DNA of 32,000 nucleotides, taken from NCBI RefSeq assembly GCF_000698785.1, contig NZ_CP007536.1, positions 2,430,001 through 2,462,000 of the forward strand, written 5' to 3'. Both the position numbers and the translations under genes were made by a program. Below, in pieces: positions 9,105 to 32,000 of the stretch; the first letter of the stretch is position 1, and every line of letters begins with the position of its first letter. This DNA is from Nitrososphaera viennensis EN76. GTDB lineage: Archaea > Thermoproteota > Nitrososphaeria > Nitrososphaerales > Nitrososphaeraceae. The notes beneath the pieces were generated by a model. That model was given only the letters and a program-made list of their open reading frames with translations, ran no database searches and was not told the origin of the DNA.

Positions 9105-9105
9105 G

Positions 9106-9199
9106 CGGGCCCGTCGGGATTCGAACCCGAGACAACCGGATTTCTTTCTTTTGTAGAAAGTTAAAAGTCCGGTACTCTACCTGGCTGAGCTACGGGCCC
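9106..9199 (-). tRNA. tRNA-Lys (anticodon UUU) with a ~20-nt intron at the canonical 37/38 position; CCA not encoded
   Basis: Hand fold: acceptor GGGCCCG/CGGGCCC, D arm GCTC..GAGT, anticodon stem CCGGA/TCCGG, loop CTTTTAA, intron CTTTCTACAAAAGAAAGAAA, T arm TCGGG-TTCGAAT-CCCGA, discriminator G. Confidence 0.9.
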
Positions 9200-26775: not shown

Positions 26776-28146
26776 TCATTGTGCCATTTTCGACCTCACG
26801 ATCCTCGAATATTCGTCTACCTTGGAGTCAAGGAGCGCCCTGTCTGTCGACTCGGCGTACATGCGTATCAAAGGCTCCGTGCCACTTGGCCTCACCATAA
26901 GCCACGTCTCGTCGTCGATCCATATCTTGACCCCGTCCATAGTCTCTATCCTCTTTGGGCTTCCGTGCTCCATGCACGCTTGTACCACCTTCTCGACAAC
27001 CTCGCGGGAGCTGCACACGAACTTTGTCTTTAGCTGGAACGTCCTTGGAAGCTTTTCCACGAGCTGCGAAAACGACTCGCCGGCAGCTGCAAGCATGTCA
27101 AGCACGAGCGCCGCCGTCATGGCGCCGTCCCTCACCTCGTTTATCGGCCCGTACATGAAACCGCCGTTTTCCTCAAGGCCCATCGGCGCCTTGCGCCTTA
27201 CCATCTCCCTTGACACCTCGACGCTCCCGACCTTGGTGTGCACGACCTTCAGCCCCGCCTCTTCTGCGACCTTTGAGAGCACCATCGACGTGTTTACCGG
27301 GCAGACTATCTCGGCGCCTTTGTGCCTCTGCGCAAGCAGGTTCTTTGCCAAGAGCGAGCCGGTCTTGTCGCCCCAGTAGATGCTTCCCCTATCGTCGCAA
27401 AAGATGCTCCTGTCGCCGTCGCCGTCAAACGCGACGCCAAAGTCCGCCCTGCCGTTTCTGACGGCCTCTGCTAGCACGCCCAGGTTGTCCGGCGTGGGCT
27501 CTGATCCCCTGCCGGGAAAGTCGCCGTCGATGTCTCCGTTGATGACTAGTACTTTGCAGCCAAGCTTTTTTGCGATTATCGGGGCGACGACAGCCTGCGC
27601 GCCGTTTCCTGTGTCCATTGCCACTGTAAAGTTCCTGGCGCGAATCCTGTCGGCGTCGACAAGTGACAGCACCTTTTCCATGTATGCGGGAATGACGCTG
27701 TCGTCCACGTACTGGCGGCCGTGCCCTGCCGTCGTCGCAAACTTTTTCGAATGATAAATGTCCTCGACTGCCAGCTCGTCTTCCCGCGATATCTCCACGC
27801 CGTCTGATGCCGCAGGCTTGATGCCGTTGTACTCTGGCGGGTTGTGCGACGCCGTAATCATGATGCCTCCGTTGTAGCCGAGCCTCTTTGCGGCATGCTG
27901 CAGGCACGGAGTCGGGACCAGCCCCGCGTCGGCAACGTCAAGGCCTGCCGAGTTGAGCGTCGCGCGCACCAGCCTTGAAACCGCCGGGCTGGACCTGCGT
28001 CCGTCGTACCCGACCACTATGGGGCCCTTTTTGTAATACGTGGCAATAGCGTACGTCAGATCAATGACAAGGTCGCTTGTGAAATCCTTGCCCCAAACGC
28101 CTCGCACCCCGTTTGTACCAAATAGTCTTGCTCTTTGCTGATGCAT
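26776..28146 (-). CDS. Phosphohexomutase (phosphoglucosamine/phosphomannomutase family)
   Basis: Starts MHQQRARLFGTNGVRGV. It has the active-site loop TASHNPPEYNGIK, the metal loop DGDGDR and GTEPLIR. The start is set to ATG 28146 because the longer track ORF overlaps tRNA-Leu. Confidence 0.9.
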   Translation of the reverse strand: MHQQRARLFGTNGVRGVWGKDFTSDLVIDLTYAIATYYKKGPIVVGYDGRRSSPAVSRLVRATLNSAGLDVADAGLVPTPCLQHAAKRLGYNGGIMITASHNPPEYNGIKPAASDGVEISREDELAVEDIYHSKKFATTAGHGRQYVDDSVIPAYMEKVLSLVDADRIRARNFTVAMDTGNGAQAVVAPIIAKKLGCKVLVINGDIDGDFPGRGSEPTPDNLGVLAEAVRNGRADFGVAFDGDGDRSIFCDDRGSIYWGDKTGSLLAKNLLAQRHKGAEIVCPVNTSMVLSKVAEEAGLKVVHTKVGSVEVSREMVRRKAPMGLEENGGFMYGPINEVRDGAMTAALVLDMLAAAGESFSQLVEKLPRTFQLKTKFVCSSREVVEKVVQACMEHGSPKRIETMDGVKIWIDDETWLMVRPSGTEPLIRMYAESTDRALLDSKVDEYSRIVRSKMAQ

Positions 28147-28171
28147 CCGCAGAGGATGCAATGTGACAATA

Positions 28172-28180
28172 GATAAATTT
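28172..28180. promoter_or_regulatory. Near-symmetric T/A box GATAAATTT placed to serve both tRNA-Leu (+) and the phosphohexomutase gene (-)
   Basis: It is centred ~27-34 nt from the tRNA 5' end (28210) and ~27-30 nt from ATG 28146 on the other strand. It is the only T/A-rich element in the 63-bp spacer. Confidence 0.3.
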
Positions 28181-28209
28181 GGCTGCTGCCCGCTTGTGCA
28201 GGTGCGCGC

Positions 28210-28320
28210 GCGGGGGTCGCCAAGCCCGGTCAACGGCGCAGGGCTTAGAATGGGTATGCATTAGCCCCTACAACCCTGTTCCTTAGGGATTCGTGGGTTC
28301 AAATCCCACCCCCCGCACCA
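28210..28320 (+). tRNA. tRNA-Leu (anticodon UAG), type II with long variable arm, ~23-nt intron at 37/38, CCA encoded
   Basis: Hand fold: acceptor GCGGGGG/CCCCCGC, 3-bp D stem GCC/GGC, anticodon stem CAGGG/CCCTG, loop CTTAGAA, intron TGGGTATGCATTAGCCCCTACAA, variable arm TCC-TTAG-GGA, T arm GTGGG-TTCAAAT-CCCAC, discriminator A, CCA. Confidence 0.9.
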
Positions 28321-28371
28321 CTTCTCTTTTATACTCGCATGTGTGCGCGTTTCCAGTGGACTACAAATACA

Positions 28372-28379
28372 AGCGTAGT
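28372..28379 (+). repeat. Left copy of the 8-bp target-site duplication AGCGTAGT
   Basis: Identical to 31610-31617 and directly abutting the left terminal inverted repeat. Confidence 0.8.
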
Positions 28380-28429
28380 GGTTCTGTTGAATCTTCGGGT
28401 GTTGGAATTGGGTGTTGAATTTTGGGTGG
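28380..28429 (+). repeat. Left terminal inverted repeat (50 bp)
   Basis: GGTTCTGTTGAATCTTCGGGTGTTGGAATTGGGTGTTGAATTTTGGGTGG is the exact reverse complement of 31560-31609. Imperfect similarity continues ~9 bp inward. Confidence 0.9.
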
Positions 28430-28528
28430 CAGGCAACCCCCTCTCCCAAGAGCTCGCTGTTAAATAGCACCTCATAGAAACCCGCATTGTTGAAAAGAAG
28501 ATTCTATACGGCCATAAGTGGTTTAGAT

Positions 28529-29464
28529 ATGAAAATTGACAGATTACAAGTAGGCAACGTAACTTTCGTTAGATCGCATTCACAAATACCTGAAGACACT
28601 CTAGCTCAGAAAGCCTTTAGTAAACTAATGGCAACAACTCCCGATGATCTAAATTTATTCGAATGTATGCTAAAAGACAAATTTACAAAATGTGCGATAG
28701 CTGTTATCGATGTTGAAGCTGATGACGAAAAGACAGCTGAAGAAGTCTCCGAGGATGAGATTGAGAAAGCACTGAATGTTCTGAGATTCTATCTAGCAGG
28801 GTTATCTGAGAACGATCCTTTCTTTTACAAGATGTTCATTGGAATTGAAGGCATAACCAATACTGGACTCACTGCGACCGTAATTATTGATGATGATAAT
28901 CAAAAATTCTTCTTTTCTTCGAGCAGAAAAGGAGCTCATAGAGGGTACGAGCTTGATTCGACCAAGTATCAGAAAATGCTTGACTTTCACTTTGAAAGAG
29001 TGAGTGCGATTCTGGCAACACCTGAAGATTCTAGAAGCCAGATGGAAAATAGCATATTGACATCGATAATATTTTTTGGTTCAGGGATGAATGAGCGTTT
29101 GCTCCGCAATACTTTTGTCAGTTTTGTTATTGCATTAGAATCTTGTCTATTGAGAAGATGTGAGAAAGACAAGTCGGGAAACATTGCCAATGGAATGTGC
29201 GCAATGTTACAGATTAAGCCTGAATATAGGCGAGCTATCCACGAAAAGGTTGAATCGTATTATGATATACGATCAGACATAGTTCATGAAGGTGTAGATA
29301 ATGTTGTAGAAGGAATGGTGTTCGAAATTTGCTATTTGACCTTCAATACAATAATGCGTCTAGTTGCCCATAGTAAGGAAATCAAGGATAAGGATGAATT
29401 GAGAAAGAAGATACGTGAGGAATTAAAAGAAATAAATAGAAAAACCAAGGCCCAATGCACCTAG
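28529..29464 (+). CDS. HEPN-type (RxxxxH) protein with an unknown N-terminal domain; Apea-like/Abi-like putative RNase
   Basis: ATG lies at 28529; the track start 28487 is TTG. The C-terminal helical region is FVSFVIALESCLL...VESYYDIRSDIVHEGV (R-x4-H followed by E-G). The N-terminal ~190 aa are beta-rich with no motif recognised. Confidence 0.6.
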   Translation: MKIDRLQVGNVTFVRSHSQIPEDTLAQKAFSKLMATTPDDLNLFECMLKDKFTKCAIAVIDVEADDEKTAEEVSEDEIEKALNVLRFYLAGLSENDPFFYKMFIGIEGITNTGLTATVIIDDDNQKFFFSSSRKGAHRGYELDSTKYQKMLDFHFERVSAILATPEDSRSQMENSILTSIIFFGSGMNERLLRNTFVSFVIALESCLLRRCEKDKSGNIANGMCAMLQIKPEYRRAIHEKVESYYDIRSDIVHEGVDNVVEGMVFEICYLTFNTIMRLVAHSKEIKDKDELRKKIREELKEINRKTKAQCT

Positions 29465-29481
29465 ATTTCGTCTCCTTTACA

Positions 29482-30639
29482 TCATAAACCGTTTGAACCT
29501 CTCACGGCTCTTCCCAACAGTTCTTTCCATCCATTGACATCTAGACCCGCGACCTGTCCCGGCGTTTTTCCGTCTAGTGCTATATGTGGCTTTACGAAAT
29601 TGTACTGTATTCTCTGCCCGTCAATAATCGGCGTTTCAACCGTCTTTAGGCCACGCAGTACCTTTGTCCTTTCCCGTACAGTGCCATTCATCCTTTCAAT
29701 CCTGTTATTGTTGGCAGTCTTTTTCCGTATGCCGCTCTGTACGCGCTCTGCGTTTGGAAACACCTTCACGCCTGAATGATAGTGCCTTAGCGCGTCAGTA
29801 TGCACCTTCTCAGGCGTTATGCCGTGAGCGTTCTTGGCAGCTTCTTTGAAGGCATCTATTGCAGCAACCACATCTCTTTTCTCGGTCAGCTTTGACGCTA
29901 TCAAAAAGCGCGTTTCCCTGTCCATGATGTTCCAGAGAAAGCCCATGCTGTACCCGTGCTGCATAACATTTCCGTCTCTTGTCCTTATGAAAACCTCGTC
30001 AGCGTGCCATGTCGTTGATAATTGAGGCGCTAGGCTGTTTACGTACTCTGTTATTATCGGGATGTACTTCTGAATCCAAGTGTAGATTGTGGAATAGTTT
30101 ATGTCGATTCTAAAGTGGTCAGACAGGTTGCGTGCAATCTTTCTTAGTGATAGCCCCGAAAAGTACAAGTCCAGAGTCAGGGTTACTAGCTCTGGACTGA
30201 ATTTCGCTTTCTTGAGCAATGATGGCTCGGTGAATTTGTGTTGGCAGTCCTTGCACTTGAAAACCTGTTTGCCGCTTGACTGGCCGTACCTGATTGTACG
30301 GATGGAACCGCAGCGATCGCATGGAATAGCATCTTCCGCAAACACTTTCGGCTTTGGTTCGTCGCGCAGGTACGTCTTTGTGGCTATCATCATGCGTACA
30401 GCGAAAATATGTTTGCAGGCTTCCACCTGTCGGTATTCAAAATCGGGGCAGGTACAGACCCAGCTTTGGCCTATGAGCCTGACTTCATAGCTCATGGAGC
30501 CCATCTGAGAAGGCACCTGAAAGCTCCCGTCTTGGTTTTCGACTATATTCTTGCTATTGCTTTCAAGCAGCTCCAGCCCTCTCTTCATCCGTGCTTGCGA
30601 ATCGTATGCGGATTTTTGTGGTTGCATTAGTATGGTCAT
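29482..30639 (-). CDS. DDE transposase, IS6-family-like, with an N-terminal SWIM zinc finger and zinc ribbon
   Basis: The SWIM finger is WVCTCPDFEYRQVEACKHIF and the ribbon is CDRCGS...FKCKDCQHKF. The DDE region reads WHADEVFIRT...FLWNIMDRETRF...VHTDALRHY...NNRIERMNGTVRERTKVLRGLKT. The start is ambiguous (ATG at 30684, 30639 or 30627). Confidence 0.85.
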   Translation of the reverse strand: MTILMQPQKSAYDSQARMKRGLELLESNSKNIVENQDGSFQVPSQMGSMSYEVRLIGQSWVCTCPDFEYRQVEACKHIFAVRMMIATKTYLRDEPKPKVFAEDAIPCDRCGSIRTIRYGQSSGKQVFKCKDCQHKFTEPSLLKKAKFSPELVTLTLDLYFSGLSLRKIARNLSDHFRIDINYSTIYTWIQKYIPIITEYVNSLAPQLSTTWHADEVFIRTRDGNVMQHGYSMGFLWNIMDRETRFLIASKLTEKRDVVAAIDAFKEAAKNAHGITPEKVHTDALRHYHSGVKVFPNAERVQSGIRKKTANNNRIERMNGTVRERTKVLRGLKTVETPIIDGQRIQYNFVKPHIALDGKTPGQVAGLDVNGWKELLGRAVRGSNGL

Positions 30640-30655
30640 TAGTATTATCATACTA
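30640..30655. repeat. Palindrome TAGTAT-TATC-ATACTA abutting transposase ATG 30639; operator candidate
   Basis: Read directly. The same hexamer recurs at 30628-30633 (TAGTAT) and 30706-30711 (ATACTA) in the region between the divergent transposase and AbrB-like starts. Confidence 0.45.
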
Positions 30656-30721
30656 TGATTAATATAAAGATTATGTTGTATCATAATACATATATTATAG
30701 TCTGCATACTAAGTGCTGTAT

Positions 30722-30925
30722 ATGCCAGTGAAATATACCGTGACTGTTACCTCAGTGGGTAGCAGTTCTGTCATAGTGGTTCCAAAGCCAGTACTGGAAG
30801 GATTTGGCTTGAAAAAGGGCGACAAGGTTGATCTGATTGTACGCGATGACGGCATCTACATTCCGATTGCTCCACAAGACAAGGGCATCGTTGAGCCAAC
30901 AATAAAAGAGGACGAGGTTTCTTGA
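30722..30925 (+). CDS. SpoVT/AbrB-type (MazE-like) DNA-binding protein
   Basis: MPVKYTVTVTSVGSSSVIVVPKPVLEGFGLKKGDKVDLIVRDDGIYI shows the swapped-hairpin AbrB pattern. ATG lies at 30722; the track start 30713 is GTG. Confidence 0.7.
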   Translation: MPVKYTVTVTSVGSSSVIVVPKPVLEGFGLKKGDKVDLIVRDDGIYIPIAPQDKGIVEPTIKEDEVS

Positions 30926-31398
30926 CCGAGGCCAAGCGTGAATATAGAAAGGCTGTCAATTTCGCTACAGTTTACGCAGACGGAGCTATCGTTCATTTCG
31001 GGCTGGATACATGCAGGATCATATTCTATACAGAAGAGATCGAGATCGAGGAAGATGGTTCGGGCATCGCAAATAACAAGAGCGTTGCCTTACTGAAGTA
31101 TGAGGTCGTTTTGCCTAGGAGTATTCTCAAACACATGGCTACAGAAACGTACAAGCTCGGCCAATTAGAACACTATGCGATTAAAATCGAAAGGTCAAAG
31201 CACGACACCGACGAGAGGGTTACGCAAGCATACTGGGAATTTGACAAGGAACTAGGCTCCATCTATTTTGACACCTACAAGGACTTGGCTAATCAGCAGA
31301 TTCGCGGACTAGCTGACAAGTTTAACGATTTGACGGCTATCGCGGGTCTCAGAAAAGAGGATTTAGAATCAGAGGGGAACGCTGATGAAAATGAATGA
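30922..31398 (+). CDS. Hypothetical 158-aa protein translationally coupled to the AbrB-like gene
   Basis: A TTG start overlaps the AbrB-like stop (TTGA). There is no in-frame ATG until residue ~72. No toxin motif (PIN, MazF, RelE, Doc) was recognised. The C-terminus is acidic. Confidence 0.55.
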   Translation: MTEAKREYRKAVNFATVYADGAIVHFGLDTCRIIFYTEEIEIEEDGSGIANNKSVALLKYEVVLPRSILKHMATETYKLGQLEHYAIKIERSKHDTDERVTQAYWEFDKELGSIYFDTYKDLANQQIRGLADKFNDLTAIAGLRKEDLESEGNADENE

Positions 31399-31696
31399 AA
31401 ATAATATCGTACGATGTTCAAGCTGCAACGCGCCTTTAATCTACGAGGAATTGAAAGATCATATCTGTTTTACAAAGAAGCTAGTCGAGGCGCGATTTGA
31501 TACCAATGACAACAAGGTTTACGCATTTGATGGAAAAAGATGGTATCGCTGGTTCCCGCCCACCCAAAATTCAACACCCAATTCCAACACCCGAAGATTC
31601 AACAGAACCAGCGTAGTTGTAGATTCTGCTGCTGTTAGTTCTTTTATTGTGGCAGGTTTACGCATGTTCATGCATAAAGTCGGCTTCTCTTCATGA
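31385..31696 (+). CDS. Small CxxC...HxC protein whose reading frame runs through the right TIR and out of the transposon
   Basis: ATG 31385 overlaps the upstream gene by 14 nt. The N-terminal ~58 aa (RCSSCNAPLIYEELKDHICF...GKRWYRW) look genuine. From ~31555 the frame is encoded by TIR and flank DNA. Confidence 0.4.
   Translation: MKMNENNIVRCSSCNAPLIYEELKDHICFTKKLVEARFDTNDNKVYAFDGKRWYRWFPPTQNSTPNSNTRRFNRTSVVVDSAAVSSFIVAGLRMFMHKVGFSS
31560..31609 (-). repeat. Right terminal inverted repeat (50 bp)
   Basis: The plus strand reads CCACCCAAAATTCAACACCCAATTCCAACACCCGAAGATTCAACAGAACC, the exact reverse complement of 28380-28429. Confidence 0.9.
31610..31617 (+). repeat. Right copy of the 8-bp target-site duplication AGCGTAGT
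   Basis: Identical to 28372-28379 and directly abutting the right TIR. Confidence 0.8.
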
Positions 31697-31714
31697 TGAA
31701 ATAAATATCAGAAA

Positions 31715-31948
31715 ATGAGCTTGCGTCCTGTCGTGAAAGTAGAACTAGAAATGTACATCGACGAAGAAGACGAATCGATCGTCCTGAAGAACGTTTCAGA
31801 AATAACGAAGCACGCAAAAGAATTGGGGTTCAAGCTGGGCGAACTTGAATTCAAAAACAGGGAATACGACAAGCGCGAAAAGAAAGAAGAAGAAAAAGGG
31901 AACAAGGAAAACAAGAAACGCCATCATGGCCATCATCACGGCAGGTAA
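31715..31948 (+). CDS. Hypothetical small protein with a Lys/Glu-rich region and His-rich tail (HHGHHHGR)
   Basis: ATG start, 77 codons, AT-rich DNA outside the transposon. No family was recognised. Confidence 0.35.
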   Translation: MSLRPVVKVELEMYIDEEDESIVLKNVSEITKHAKELGFKLGELEFKNREYDKREKKEEEKGNKENKKRHHGHHHGR

Positions 31949-32000
31949 CAGAAAAAGGCATGACGATGGTCGCAAGGCAGACGTACTGCACAAATTGCAA

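What the first reader, a model, noticed from the sequence alone, without database searches (positions are those of the whole stretch)
30713..31696. Transposon passenger cassette: AbrB/MazE-like gene plus two overlapping ORFans, a candidate novel toxin-antitoxin or defence operon
Three same-strand ORFs overlap start-to-stop: TTGA at 30922-30925, and a 14-nt overlap at 31385-31398. The first encodes a clear SpoVT/AbrB swapped-hairpin DNA binder, the classic antitoxin/repressor fold of MazE, VapB and PrlF. The 158-aa partner shows none of the toxin signatures I can recognise (no PIN acidic quartet, MazF, RelE, Doc or HEPN motif). It is followed by a small CxxC/HxC protein. This is an antitoxin-like regulator with unknown effectors on a mobile element.
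Basis: partly seen in the sequence, partly recalled or inferred. Interest (0 to 1): 0.62.

Follow-up and report, generated by a model that had tools for sequence, protein, structure and literature searches.

The report
Accessory three-gene operon of archaeal transposon
The three overlapping genes are real and sit on a freshly inserted IS6-like transposon of a soil ammonia-oxidising archaeon, but they are not random orphan cargo: they are one version of an exchangeable three-gene operon that this transposon family almost always carries next to its transposase, probably a toxin-antitoxin-like maintenance and regulatory module built from uncharacterised proteins.

Summary
Observation confirmed, with corrections. 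A is a SpoVT/AbrB protein (30722-30925). B runs 30922-31398 and C from 31391.

They lie in a 3,230-bp IS6-like transposon (28380-31609) with ~59-nt inverted repeats (IRs), an 8-bp target duplication (AGCGTAGT) and four empty-site paralogues in the genome.

B is not an ORFan. It has 39 further hits among 50%-identity cluster representatives, dN/dS of 0.07-0.12, and a confident AF2 model with no match in PDB or BFVD.

C is a conserved CCHC zinc protein. Its frame has no stop inside the element: 75 codons are transposon-encoded (the last ~20 by the right IR) and 28 come from flanking DNA.

In 11 distinct B loci, gene 1 is always a small putative DNA binder (AbrB-type in 6, Zn-ribbon in 5) and C follows in 10. 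The transposase lies divergently adjacent in 5 of 8 loci with enough flank.

Related transposases carry analogous RHH- or AbrB-led cassettes at the same position. These cassettes are shuffled against the transposase tree: an 88%-identical transposase has an unrelated cassette.

Best reading (0.42): a toxin-antitoxin-like maintenance and regulatory module. A represses the divergent promoters through ATTAGTAT operators and binds B through its tail. No toxin signature was found and nothing was tested at the bench.

The same scan also flagged this transposon separately. No look-alike was found on other DNA.

The parts
28372..28379 (.). Left copy of the 8-bp target-site duplication AGCGTAGT
   Evidence: Read directly from the junctions. 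Uninterrupted target paralogues lie at genome 744807-744873, 1373157-1373223, about 2025592 and about 2018785.
28380..28438 (+). Left terminal inverted repeat (GGTTCTGTTGAATC...) with GGGTGTT sub-repeats
   Evidence: the repeat finder pair I1 is 60 nt and 95% complementary. The GG tip and cTGTt motif match the IS6 family as described in PMC7986276.
28487..29464 (+). 325-aa cargo gene downstream of tnp, with a C-terminal YYDIRSDIVHEG (R-x4-H, HEPN-like) motif. This is the true variable cargo position.
   Evidence: ORF. No family lies above threshold. Relatives have nothing here (L003, L020) or other genes (L001). The HEPN reading rests on the motif only and was not tested.
29482..30627 (-). IS6-like DDE transposase, about 381 aa from MQPQKS, with SWIM, Zn-ribbon, HTH and DDE_Tnp_IS240 regions
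   Evidence: Pfam PF13610 scores 48.3 bits against a cut-off of 27. NCBIfam transpos_IS6 scores 107 bits, below its cut-off of 125. There are 905 homologues, many in Nitrososphaera.
30626..30721 (.). Divergent promoter and operator region. ATTAGTAT sits at 30626-30633 and 30638-30645 (12-nt spacing, the first overlapping the tnp start codon). Palindromes and AT-rich TATA-like boxes are also present.
   Evidence: These are the only two ATTAGTAT matches in the 32-kb window. The same octamer clusters upstream of AbrB-type gene 1 in L020 (4 copies) and L017 (3 copies). Repeats are listed.
30722..30925 (+). Gene A: 67-aa SpoVT/AbrB swapped-hairpin DNA-binding protein (70 aa if the GTG at 30713 is used) with the C-terminal tail IVEPTIKEDEVS
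   Evidence: Homologues at 58-66% identity occur in L017 and L019, with dN/dS of 0.12-0.14.
30922..31398 (+). Gene B: 158-aa member of a conserved ~150-aa family (motifs YADG, RLIFYQ, LKFEVRIP; invariant D20 and E61). It has a beta-meander followed by four helices. It starts at TTG, overlapping the stop of A.
   Evidence: 39 further homologues, alignment A1. AF2 pLDDT 80; no fold match; dN/dS 0.07-0.12.
31391..31696 (+). Gene C: CCHC zinc-finger protein (C11, C14, H26, C28 in the numbering from 31385). The frame has no stop inside the element and runs through the right IR (from 31551) into flanking DNA (31610-31696).
31551..31609 (-). Right terminal inverted repeat, open in all three frames on the + strand
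   Evidence: Frames were read directly from the sequence.
31610..31617 (.). Right copy of the target-site duplication AGCGTAGT

Best explanation
A-B-C is the conserved, exchangeable accessory operon of a thaumarchaeal IS6-like transposon family. It most likely works as a three-component toxin-antitoxin-like maintenance and regulatory module.

**Proposed mechanism.**
- A (AbrB fold) binds the ATTAGTAT repeats in the ~95-bp divergent promoter region. This represses both its own operon and the transposase gene. This step is inferred from conserved operator clusters.
- A's short C-terminal tail docks onto the beta-domain of B and holds it inactive. This step is inferred from a tail motif that follows B-type partners whatever the fold of gene 1.
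- B, together with the zinc-finger protein C, is the effector. When A decays or the element is lost, B and C would harm or arrest the cell, or block transposition. That would stabilise the element through its replicative, cointegrate-forming transposition. This step is pure inference.

**Shown here.**
- The transposon and its boundaries.
- The coding status and conservation of A, B and C.
- Their fixed order and their linkage to the transposase and the right IR.
- Cassette shuffling against the transposase tree.
- Persistence of the cassette beside broken transposases.

The confidence of 0.42 refers to the TA-like mechanism. The underlying claim, that this is an integral accessory operon of the transposon family and not random cargo, I put at about 0.8.
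For: **Transposon.** There is a 60-nt IR pair, an 8-bp TSD and four empty-site paralogues.

**Gene A.** It matches PF04014 above the cut-off.

**Gene B.**
- It belongs to a real family under purifying selection.
- All 11 distinct B loci have a small putative DNA binder as gene 1. C follows in 10 of 11, with 4-8-nt overlaps.

**Tail motif.** The motif [KR][IVL][KR]xx[KR][IVL] occurs in 8 of 14 gene-1 proteins that partner B or B2, across the AbrB, Zn-ribbon and RHH folds. It occurs in 0 of 11 gene-1 proteins with other partners (sequences). B2 shares the B beta-domain (hhalign probability 89%, E 2e-6).

**Operator.**
- ATTAGTAT occurs only twice in the 32-kb window, both between tnp and A.
- The same octamer clusters upstream of AbrB-type A in L020 and L017.
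- A different palindrome, GTGTACAC, occurs only in the Zn-ribbon-type loci L012 and L015.

**Cassette exchange.** The window transposase is 88% identical to that of L004, which carries an unrelated RHH cassette. L031 and L032 have near-identical transposases but different genes 2 and 3. B-C also occurs in the other deep transposase clade.

**Persistence without a working transposase.**
- A-B-C is intact in L018, a 1.4-kb deletion derivative with only a tnp remnant.
- It is intact in L019/L020, where tnp is frameshifted.
- A plus B occur alone in L008.

**Distribution and precedent.** B is patchy, found in 7 of 401 genomes of the class. As precedent, diverse TA pairs sit at a fixed position as an integral part of Tn3-family transposition modules (PMC7157771).
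Against: - Neither B nor C resembles any known toxin, nuclease, NTase, kinase or defence protein in sequence or fold.
- There are three genes, not two. The helical C-terminal half of B looks more like an adaptor than an enzyme.
- The tail motif overlaps the ribosome-binding region of gene B (GAGG or GGAG codons). Part of its conservation could therefore be at the nucleotide level. The loci are also phylogenetically related, so the 8/14 versus 0/11 contrast overstates independence.
- A cassette is almost always present at one fixed position, with its last gene reading through the IR. That fits a transposition-linked role equally well.
Confidence: 0.42

Rival explanations
1. Transposition-control or cofactor operon. 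A is the transposase repressor. B and C act directly in transposition, for example in end or target binding, immunity, or as an inhibitor of the transposase. Transcription and translation of C across the right IR would occlude that end while the operon is on.
For: - A cassette headed by a DNA binder sits divergently next to tnp in most family members: 13 of 15 close-clade loci with readable flank, and other copies in the same genome.
- Operator-like repeats overlap the tnp start.
- In 18 of 23 loci the terminal octamer ACAGAACC lies inside the gene-3 frame, with the stop 12-138 nt outside the element. This holds for non-homologous gene-3 families.
- C is a zinc finger and could bind the GGGTGTT sub-repeats of the IR.
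Against: - Cassettes are swapped between nearly identical transposases, and the same B-C pair serves transposases only ~35% identical. That is hard to reconcile with specific protein contacts to the transposase.
- A-B-C, or A-B alone, persists intact where tnp is truncated, frameshifted or absent.
- Canonical IS6 elements transpose with the transposase alone (PMC7986276).
Confidence: 0.3
2. Defence or counter-defence cargo. B and C form a novel anti-virus or anti-MGE effector pair regulated by A, carried by the transposon as a benefit to host or element, alongside the HEPN-like 325-aa gene.
For: - The cassettes have variable, shuffled gene content at a fixed hotspot, and B has a patchy distribution.
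- The same element carries an R-x4-H (HEPN-like) protein.
- In L007 the cassette abuts a HEPN_AbiV gene.
Against: - There are no PADLOC hits for A, B or C.
- The HEPN_AbiV gene in L007 lies outside the element.
- No relative was found in viral contigs.
- The cassette is tied to the transposase and the IR rather than to defence islands.
Confidence: 0.12
3. Chance or decaying ORFs without function.
For: The C-terminal 28 residues of the 103-aa ORF are fortuitous translation of flanking DNA. A decayed B-C copy exists in L014.
Against: - dN/dS is well below 1 for all three genes.
- B has invariant motifs across 32 sequences and C has an invariant CCHC.
- B gives a confident AF2 model.
- Gene order is conserved in 11 distinct loci.
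Confidence: 0.02

Closest known systems
Type II toxin-antitoxin modules embedded in Tn3-family transposons (Lima-Mendez et al. 2020, PMC7157771)
   Same: - The operon is small, overlapping and headed by an AbrB- or RHH-type DNA binder.
- It sits at one fixed position next to the transposition gene or genes and their promoters.
- Different module types are exchanged between closely related transposons.
- It is interpreted as part of the transposition module rather than as cargo.
   Different: - The host element is an IS6-like archaeal transposon, not Tn3.
- There are three genes.
- B and C belong to no recognised toxin family.
- The last gene has no stop codon inside the element.
- Toxicity is unproven.
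MazE/VapB/PrlF-type SpoVT-AbrB antitoxins and AbrB transition-state regulators
   Same: A carries the swapped-hairpin domain (PF04014 above threshold). It is encoded first in the operon and has a short C-terminal tail.
   Different: The partner is neither MazF, PIN nor YhaV-like. In 5 of 11 loci the AbrB domain is replaced by a Zn-ribbon, and in B2 cassettes by an RHH.
IS6/IS26 family insertion sequences (Varani et al. 2021, PMC7986276)
   Same: - The transposase has the DDE_Tnp_IS240 catalytic domain.
- The target duplication is 8 bp.
- The IR has GG tips and the cTGTt motif.
   Different: - The element is 3.2 kb (2.1-4.4 kb in relatives) against 0.7-0.9 kb.
- The IRs are ~50-60 nt with sub-repeats against 15-20 nt.
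- The transposase is ~380 aa with an added SWIM and Zn-ribbon N-terminus.
- There are three to seven extra genes. The review lists only one IS6 member with a passenger gene.
- The NCBIfam IS6 score is below its cut-off.
Tripartite toxin-antitoxin-chaperone (TAC) and omega-epsilon-zeta systems
   Same: These are three-gene addiction operons in which a small regulator or antitoxin carries a partner-specific C-terminal segment.
   Different: The B model finds no SecB-like or other chaperone fold (no SecB or other chaperone among the 50 best PDB matches listed, all E >= 0.4). There is no zeta, HigB, MqsR or HicA homologue.

Membership tests
SpoVT/AbrB (PF04014, MazE_antitoxin) - gene A | Match to the swapped-hairpin domain profile above the curated threshold | tested here: met
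   PF04014 scores 38.7 bits against a cut-off of 24.7, covering residues 13-56. TIGR01439 scores 32.3 against 28.3.
Type II toxin-antitoxin system | Adjacent, co-oriented, translationally coupled small genes with the DNA-binding antitoxin first | tested here: met
   There is a TTGA overlap between A and B and an 8-14-nt overlap between B and C. The order is conserved in 11 loci.
Type II toxin-antitoxin system | Toxin belongs to a recognised toxin superfamily or carries a catalytic signature | tested here: not met
   B and C gave no hit in Pfam, NCBIfam, PADLOC or PHROGs, in the PDB profile search, or in Foldseek against PDB and BFVD.
Type II toxin-antitoxin system | Antitoxin has a partner-specific neutralising segment and binds the toxin | tested here: inconclusive
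   A basic tail motif tracks B and B2 partners across three gene-1 folds (8/14 against 0/11). It overlaps the ribosome-binding site of gene B. No complex model could be run.
Type II toxin-antitoxin system | Toxicity of the toxin and rescue by the antitoxin | not testable with these tools
   This needs expression assays.
Type II toxin-antitoxin system | Autoregulation through an operator in the promoter | tested here: inconclusive
   ATTAGTAT clusters are conserved upstream of AbrB-type gene 1 in three elements, and the octamer occurs nowhere else in the window. Binding was not shown.
IS6 family transposon | DDE transposase of the IS240/IS6 type | tested here: met
   PF13610 scores 48.3 bits against a cut-off of 27.
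IS6 family transposon | NCBIfam IS6 equivalog score above the cut-off | tested here: not met
   NF033587 scores 107.2 bits against a cut-off of 125.
IS6 family transposon | 8-bp direct target repeats, and IRs with GG tips and the cTGTt motif | tested here: met
   AGCGTAGT flanks both ends. The IR begins GGTTCTGTTG. The criteria are from PMC7986276.
IS6 family transposon | Simple organisation: about 0.7-0.9 kb, a single transposase ORF and 15-20-bp IRs | tested here: not met
   The element is 3,230 bp with five genes and ~59-nt IRs.
Known anti-phage defence systems (PADLOC-DB) | Match of any component to a defence-system profile | tested here: not met
   A, B and C gave no hit.
SecB-like chaperone / DUF3467 (for B) | Profile or fold match | tested here: not met
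   Only 1 of 32 family members hits DUF3467, at E 0.01. PF11950 does not hit B in the genome. No SecB structure appears among the 50 best Foldseek matches listed.

The most novel reading that the evidence does not exclude
Nitrososphaeria harbour a distinct class of IS6-derived transposons that are not one-gene insertion sequences.

- Each carries an obligatory, combinatorially shuffled three-gene operon: a swappable DNA binder, a middle protein and a third protein.
- The last gene of that operon never has its own stop codon. It is translated across the terminal inverted repeat into host DNA.
- B and C would be founding members of new toxin or effector families.
- Read-out across the IR would couple operon expression to the accessibility of the transposon end, which would be a new mode of transposon self-control.
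Probability: 0.25. Interest if true: 0.75.

Novelty: new variant of a known kind. Interest (0 to 1): 0.6.

Why it matters
Published surveys describe thaumarchaeal IS elements as one- or two-gene units (PMC6563490). The IS6 family is described as ~0.8-kb single-gene elements with one known passenger-carrying member (PMC7986276).

Here a whole lineage of IS6-like elements in soil ammonia oxidisers carries a modular three-gene operon at a fixed position. Its protein families are uncharacterised. B has a confident predicted fold with no match in PDB or BFVD.

- If the module is an addiction system, it supplies new toxin and antitoxin families for archaea, where few are characterised. It would also extend the idea that TA is part of the transposition module from Tn3 to IS6-type elements.
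- If instead it acts in transposition, it would be the first accessory-protein set for an IS6-type transposase.

Either way, the stop-less last gene reading through the inverted repeat is an unexplained, family-wide trait that can be tested directly.

Tried and rejected
- **Word-indexed search with B** found only the protein itself. This 'ORFan' impression was overturned by the exhaustive HMMER search.
- **Single-sequence AF2 of B** was poor, with pLDDT 46. It was redone with an 11-sequence alignment and reached pLDDT 80.
- **Foldseek against PDB and BFVD** gave nothing below E 0.02 and no coherent fold class.
- **The SecB/DUF3467 idea for B** was rejected.
- **The 1003-aa hit P0133** is a spurious match to an Ig/PKD repeat protein.
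- **The search for related loci** had little yield:
  - With the broad alignment it failed, because no stretch was conserved enough.
  - A narrower alignment gave only 4 metagenome loci.
  - The viral-contig scan found no relative.
- **Profile searches with C** against PDB and Pfam gave only sub-threshold zinc-finger similarities: reverse gyrase N-terminal finger at E 0.16 and DUF7479 at 1.6e-3 in 6 of 14 members.
- **A conserved IR-encoded tail peptide** was considered as a functional tag and rejected, because all three frames of the IR are used in different lineages.
- **The terminator scan** found no intrinsic-terminator-like site between C and the window end.
Full report
**1. What is there**

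The window is bases 2,430,001-2,462,000 of a single-contig 2.53-Mb genome with 52.7% GC. By inference it is a Nitrososphaera-like soil ammonia-oxidising archaeon. The closest transposase relatives are labelled Nitrososphaera, and an intron-containing tRNA-Leu(UAG) sits at 28210-28320.

The three ORFs exist as described.
- A stops at TGA 30923-30925.
- B starts at TTG 30922.
- B stops at 31396-31398.
- C has ATGs at 31385 and 31391.

A is a bona fide SpoVT/AbrB domain protein, matching PF04014 at 38.7 bits against a cut-off of 24.7. Homologues begin MP[VI]KYTV, so the ATG at 30722 is the likely start. Homologues of C begin M.N.N[IL]..C, so 31391 is its likely start.

**2. The element**

A 60-nt pair of inverted repeats, 95% complementary, lies at 28379-28438 and 31551-31610. 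It brackets the following:
- a 325-aa gene;
- an IS6-like DDE transposase on the minus strand (PF13610; SWIM and Zn-ribbon N-terminus);
- A, B and C.

The junctions show an 8-bp duplication, AGCGTAGT. Four other copies of the target sequence in the genome are uninterrupted and read straight across. The element is therefore 28380-31609 (3,230 bp), single-copy and recently inserted.

The 8-bp duplication, the GG tips and the cTGTt motif are IS6-family traits (PMC7986276). The size, the long IRs with sub-repeats, the large transposase and the extra genes are not.

**3. B and C are conserved families**

The word-indexed search found only B itself. Exhaustive HMMER against 1.84e9 cluster representatives found 40 proteins at E<=1e-3, 39 besides B itself, and 12 at E<=1e-10. 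Nearly all are ~145-170 aa. One 1003-aa hit is a spurious Ig-repeat match.

The alignment shows the motifs YADG, RLIFYQ and LKFEVRIP, with invariant D20 and E61.

AF2 with an 11-sequence alignment gives pLDDT 80. The model has three long beta strands (residues 21-65) followed by four helices. Foldseek against PDB and BFVD returns nothing below E 0.02. No Pfam, NCBIfam, PADLOC or PHROGs family fits.

C has an invariant C-x2-C-x11-H-x-C signature and no significant family or PDB match.

Pairwise dN/dS is 0.07-0.12 for B, 0.12-0.18 for A and 0.22-0.41 for C. dS is partly saturated, and the C comparisons include flank-encoded tails.

**4. Context of B homologues**

There are eleven distinct loci: the window, L005/6/11, L007, L008, L009, L012, L013, L015, L017, L018 and L019/20.

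- Gene 1 is always a small putative DNA-binding protein that overlaps B. It is AbrB-type in six loci and a Zn-ribbon (KC.RCGH.W...C.KCKSPYW) in five.
- C follows B in ten of the eleven loci and is absent in L008.
- Where at least 0.4 kb of flank exists, an IS6-like transposase lies divergently next to gene 1 in five of eight loci.
  - It is intact in the window, L012 and L015.
  - It is frameshifted in L019/20.
  - It is reduced to a 3' remnant in L018, a 1.4-kb deletion derivative that keeps both IRs.
- L005, L008 and L017 have no transposase within ~0.9 kb.
- B is rare and patchy. It was found in 7 of 401 genomes of the class and in 1 of 23 genomes of the window's genus.

**5. The cassette position is a family trait and its content is shuffled**

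The transposase family occurs in 43 of 101 genomes of the host's family.

I read 26 loci from those genomes, four metagenome relatives and the other copies in this genome. Most close-clade elements (13 of 15 with readable flank) carry a three-gene cassette divergent from tnp.
- **Gene 1** is RHH, AbrB or Zn-ribbon.
- **Gene 2** is one of several families. One of them, 'B2' (L022, L032, L039), shares the B beta-domain (hhalign probability 89%, E 2e-6).
- **Gene 3** is C-type CCHC, a helical 'H3' type, or a CPFC...CYxCGF type.

A maximum-likelihood transposase tree shows the following.
- The window transposase (AbrB-B-C) is sister to L004 (RHH-x164-H3) at 88% identity.
- L031 and L032 have near-identical transposases but different genes 2 and 3.
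- B-C cassettes also occur in the other deep clade.

Cassettes are therefore autonomous modules exchanged between element lineages.

**6. Regulatory signals**

ATTAGTAT occurs only twice in the 32-kb window, at 30626-30633 and 30638-30645. The two copies are 12 nt apart, and the first overlaps the tnp start codon.

The same octamer is clustered just upstream of AbrB-type gene 1 in L020 (4 copies, also 12-nt spaced) and in L017 (3 copies). Both clusters are far above shuffled expectation. Zn-ribbon-type loci L012 and L015 instead share GTGTACAC. This supports gene 1 acting as the operator-binding regulator of the divergent promoters, but it remains an inference.

**7. Tail-partner link**

Gene-1 proteins that precede B or B2 end in [KR][IVL][KR]xx[KR][IVL]-like tails in 8 of 14 cases. 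This holds across the AbrB, Zn-ribbon and RHH folds. None of the 11 gene-1 proteins with other partners has such a tail (sequences). The window's tail, TIKEDEVS, is a degenerate version.

This mirrors antitoxin architecture, in which the DNA-binding domain is exchangeable and the neutralising tail is partner-specific. Two caveats apply.
- The tail codons overlap the Shine-Dalgarno region of B.
- The loci are not independent.

**8. The stop-less last gene**

In 18 of 23 loci the terminal octamer ACAGAACC (one mismatch allowed) lies inside the gene-3 frame, and the stop falls 12-138 nt outside the element. All three frames are used, and the pattern holds for non-homologous gene-3 families.

In the window, 75 codons of C are element-encoded, residues 56-75 by the IR. 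The remaining 28 codons are flank. No terminator-like site follows.

The A/C-rich IR strand explains why the IR itself lacks stop codons. It does not explain why gene 3 never terminates before reaching the IR. This remains unexplained.

**9. Interpretation**

Firm (about 0.8): A-B-C is an integral, conserved accessory operon of an atypical IS6-like transposon family. It is neither accidental cargo nor a set of ORFans.

The mechanism is less certain. I favour a TA-like maintenance and regulatory module (0.42) for these reasons:
- the antitoxin-like gene-1 architecture;
- the partner-specific tail;
- module exchange between near-identical transposases;
- persistence next to dead transposases;
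- the Tn3 precedent (PMC7157771).

The main rival is a direct role in transposition control (0.30). It is favoured by the fixed position, the operators over the tnp start and the read-out through the IR. It is disfavoured by cassette swapping between near-identical transposases and by the use of the same B-C pair with ~35%-identical transposases.

Defence cargo (0.12) has no positive profile evidence.

**10. Comparison with the literature**

Krupovic et al. describe thaumarchaeal IS as typically one- or two-gene elements (PMC6563490). The IS6 review lists one passenger-carrying member and lengths of 700-890 bp (PMC7986276). I found no description of this cassette architecture in the papers searched.

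**11. Limits**

- The survey of cassette types was read by eye from ORF lists.
- The host species name is inferred, not shown.

Noticed in passing
window 31385-31696; loci L001-L039 (gene 3 of each cassette): The last gene of the cassette has no stop codon inside the transposon. In 18 of 23 loci it reads through the terminal inverted repeat to the last base and stops 12-138 nt into host DNA. All three frames are used, and the pattern holds for non-homologous gene-3 families.
   Followed up: partly
window 28487-29464: The 325-aa gene between the left IR and the 3' end of tnp ends in YYDIRSDIVHEG, an R-x4-H (HEPN-like) motif. It has no family hit. This position is empty or differently filled in relatives, so it is the true variable cargo slot.
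   Followed up: no
window 28340-28379 and 31610-31650; genome 744807-744873, 1373157-1373223, ~2025592-2025650, ~2018741-2018785: The insertion target is itself a ~60-nt repeat present in five copies in the genome (GCGCGTTTCCAGTGGACTACAAATACAAGCGTAGTTGTAGA...GTTAGTTCTTTTAT). Two copies lie just downstream of intron-containing tRNA genes. Its nature is unknown; it could be a terminator, an sRNA, an att remnant or a preferred target.
   Followed up: partly
window 28000-32000 and genome to ~2463500: GC drops from ~0.57 to ~0.44 directly after tRNA-Leu. The low-GC stretch extends ~2 kb beyond the right end of the transposon and includes a 77-aa K/E-rich, His-tailed ORF at 31715-31948. The transposon may sit inside a small older island integrated next to the tRNA.
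   Followed up: no
window 28397-28429 and 31560-31592: The inner part of each IR carries three phased GGGTGTT / AACACCC sub-repeats about 13 nt apart. The same design is seen in the IRs of relative L001. They could be multiple binding sites for the transposase or for an accessory protein.
   Followed up: partly
genome 864262-866384, 2088807-2090183, 1802983-1804345: Other, ~35%-identical IS6-like copies in the same genome carry their own divergent cassettes. One has AbrB plus a 137-aa protein plus an H3-type gene 3 ending ...DDKYTEP at the element tip. Two have an AbrB-like gene only.
   Followed up: partly
L014 (G278:C69) 1131-1611: This is a decayed B-C cassette. B fragments lie in two frames, and the C fragment has lost its H-x-C half. 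It shows that the module can erode as a unit.
   Followed up: partly
window 9105-9199: ARAGORN calls a 95-nt 'tRNA-Stop' with anticodon TTA on the minus strand. A second such call lies at genome 2025443-2025576, with an intron. These are probably intron-containing tRNAs that were mis-parsed. This was not checked.
   Followed up: no
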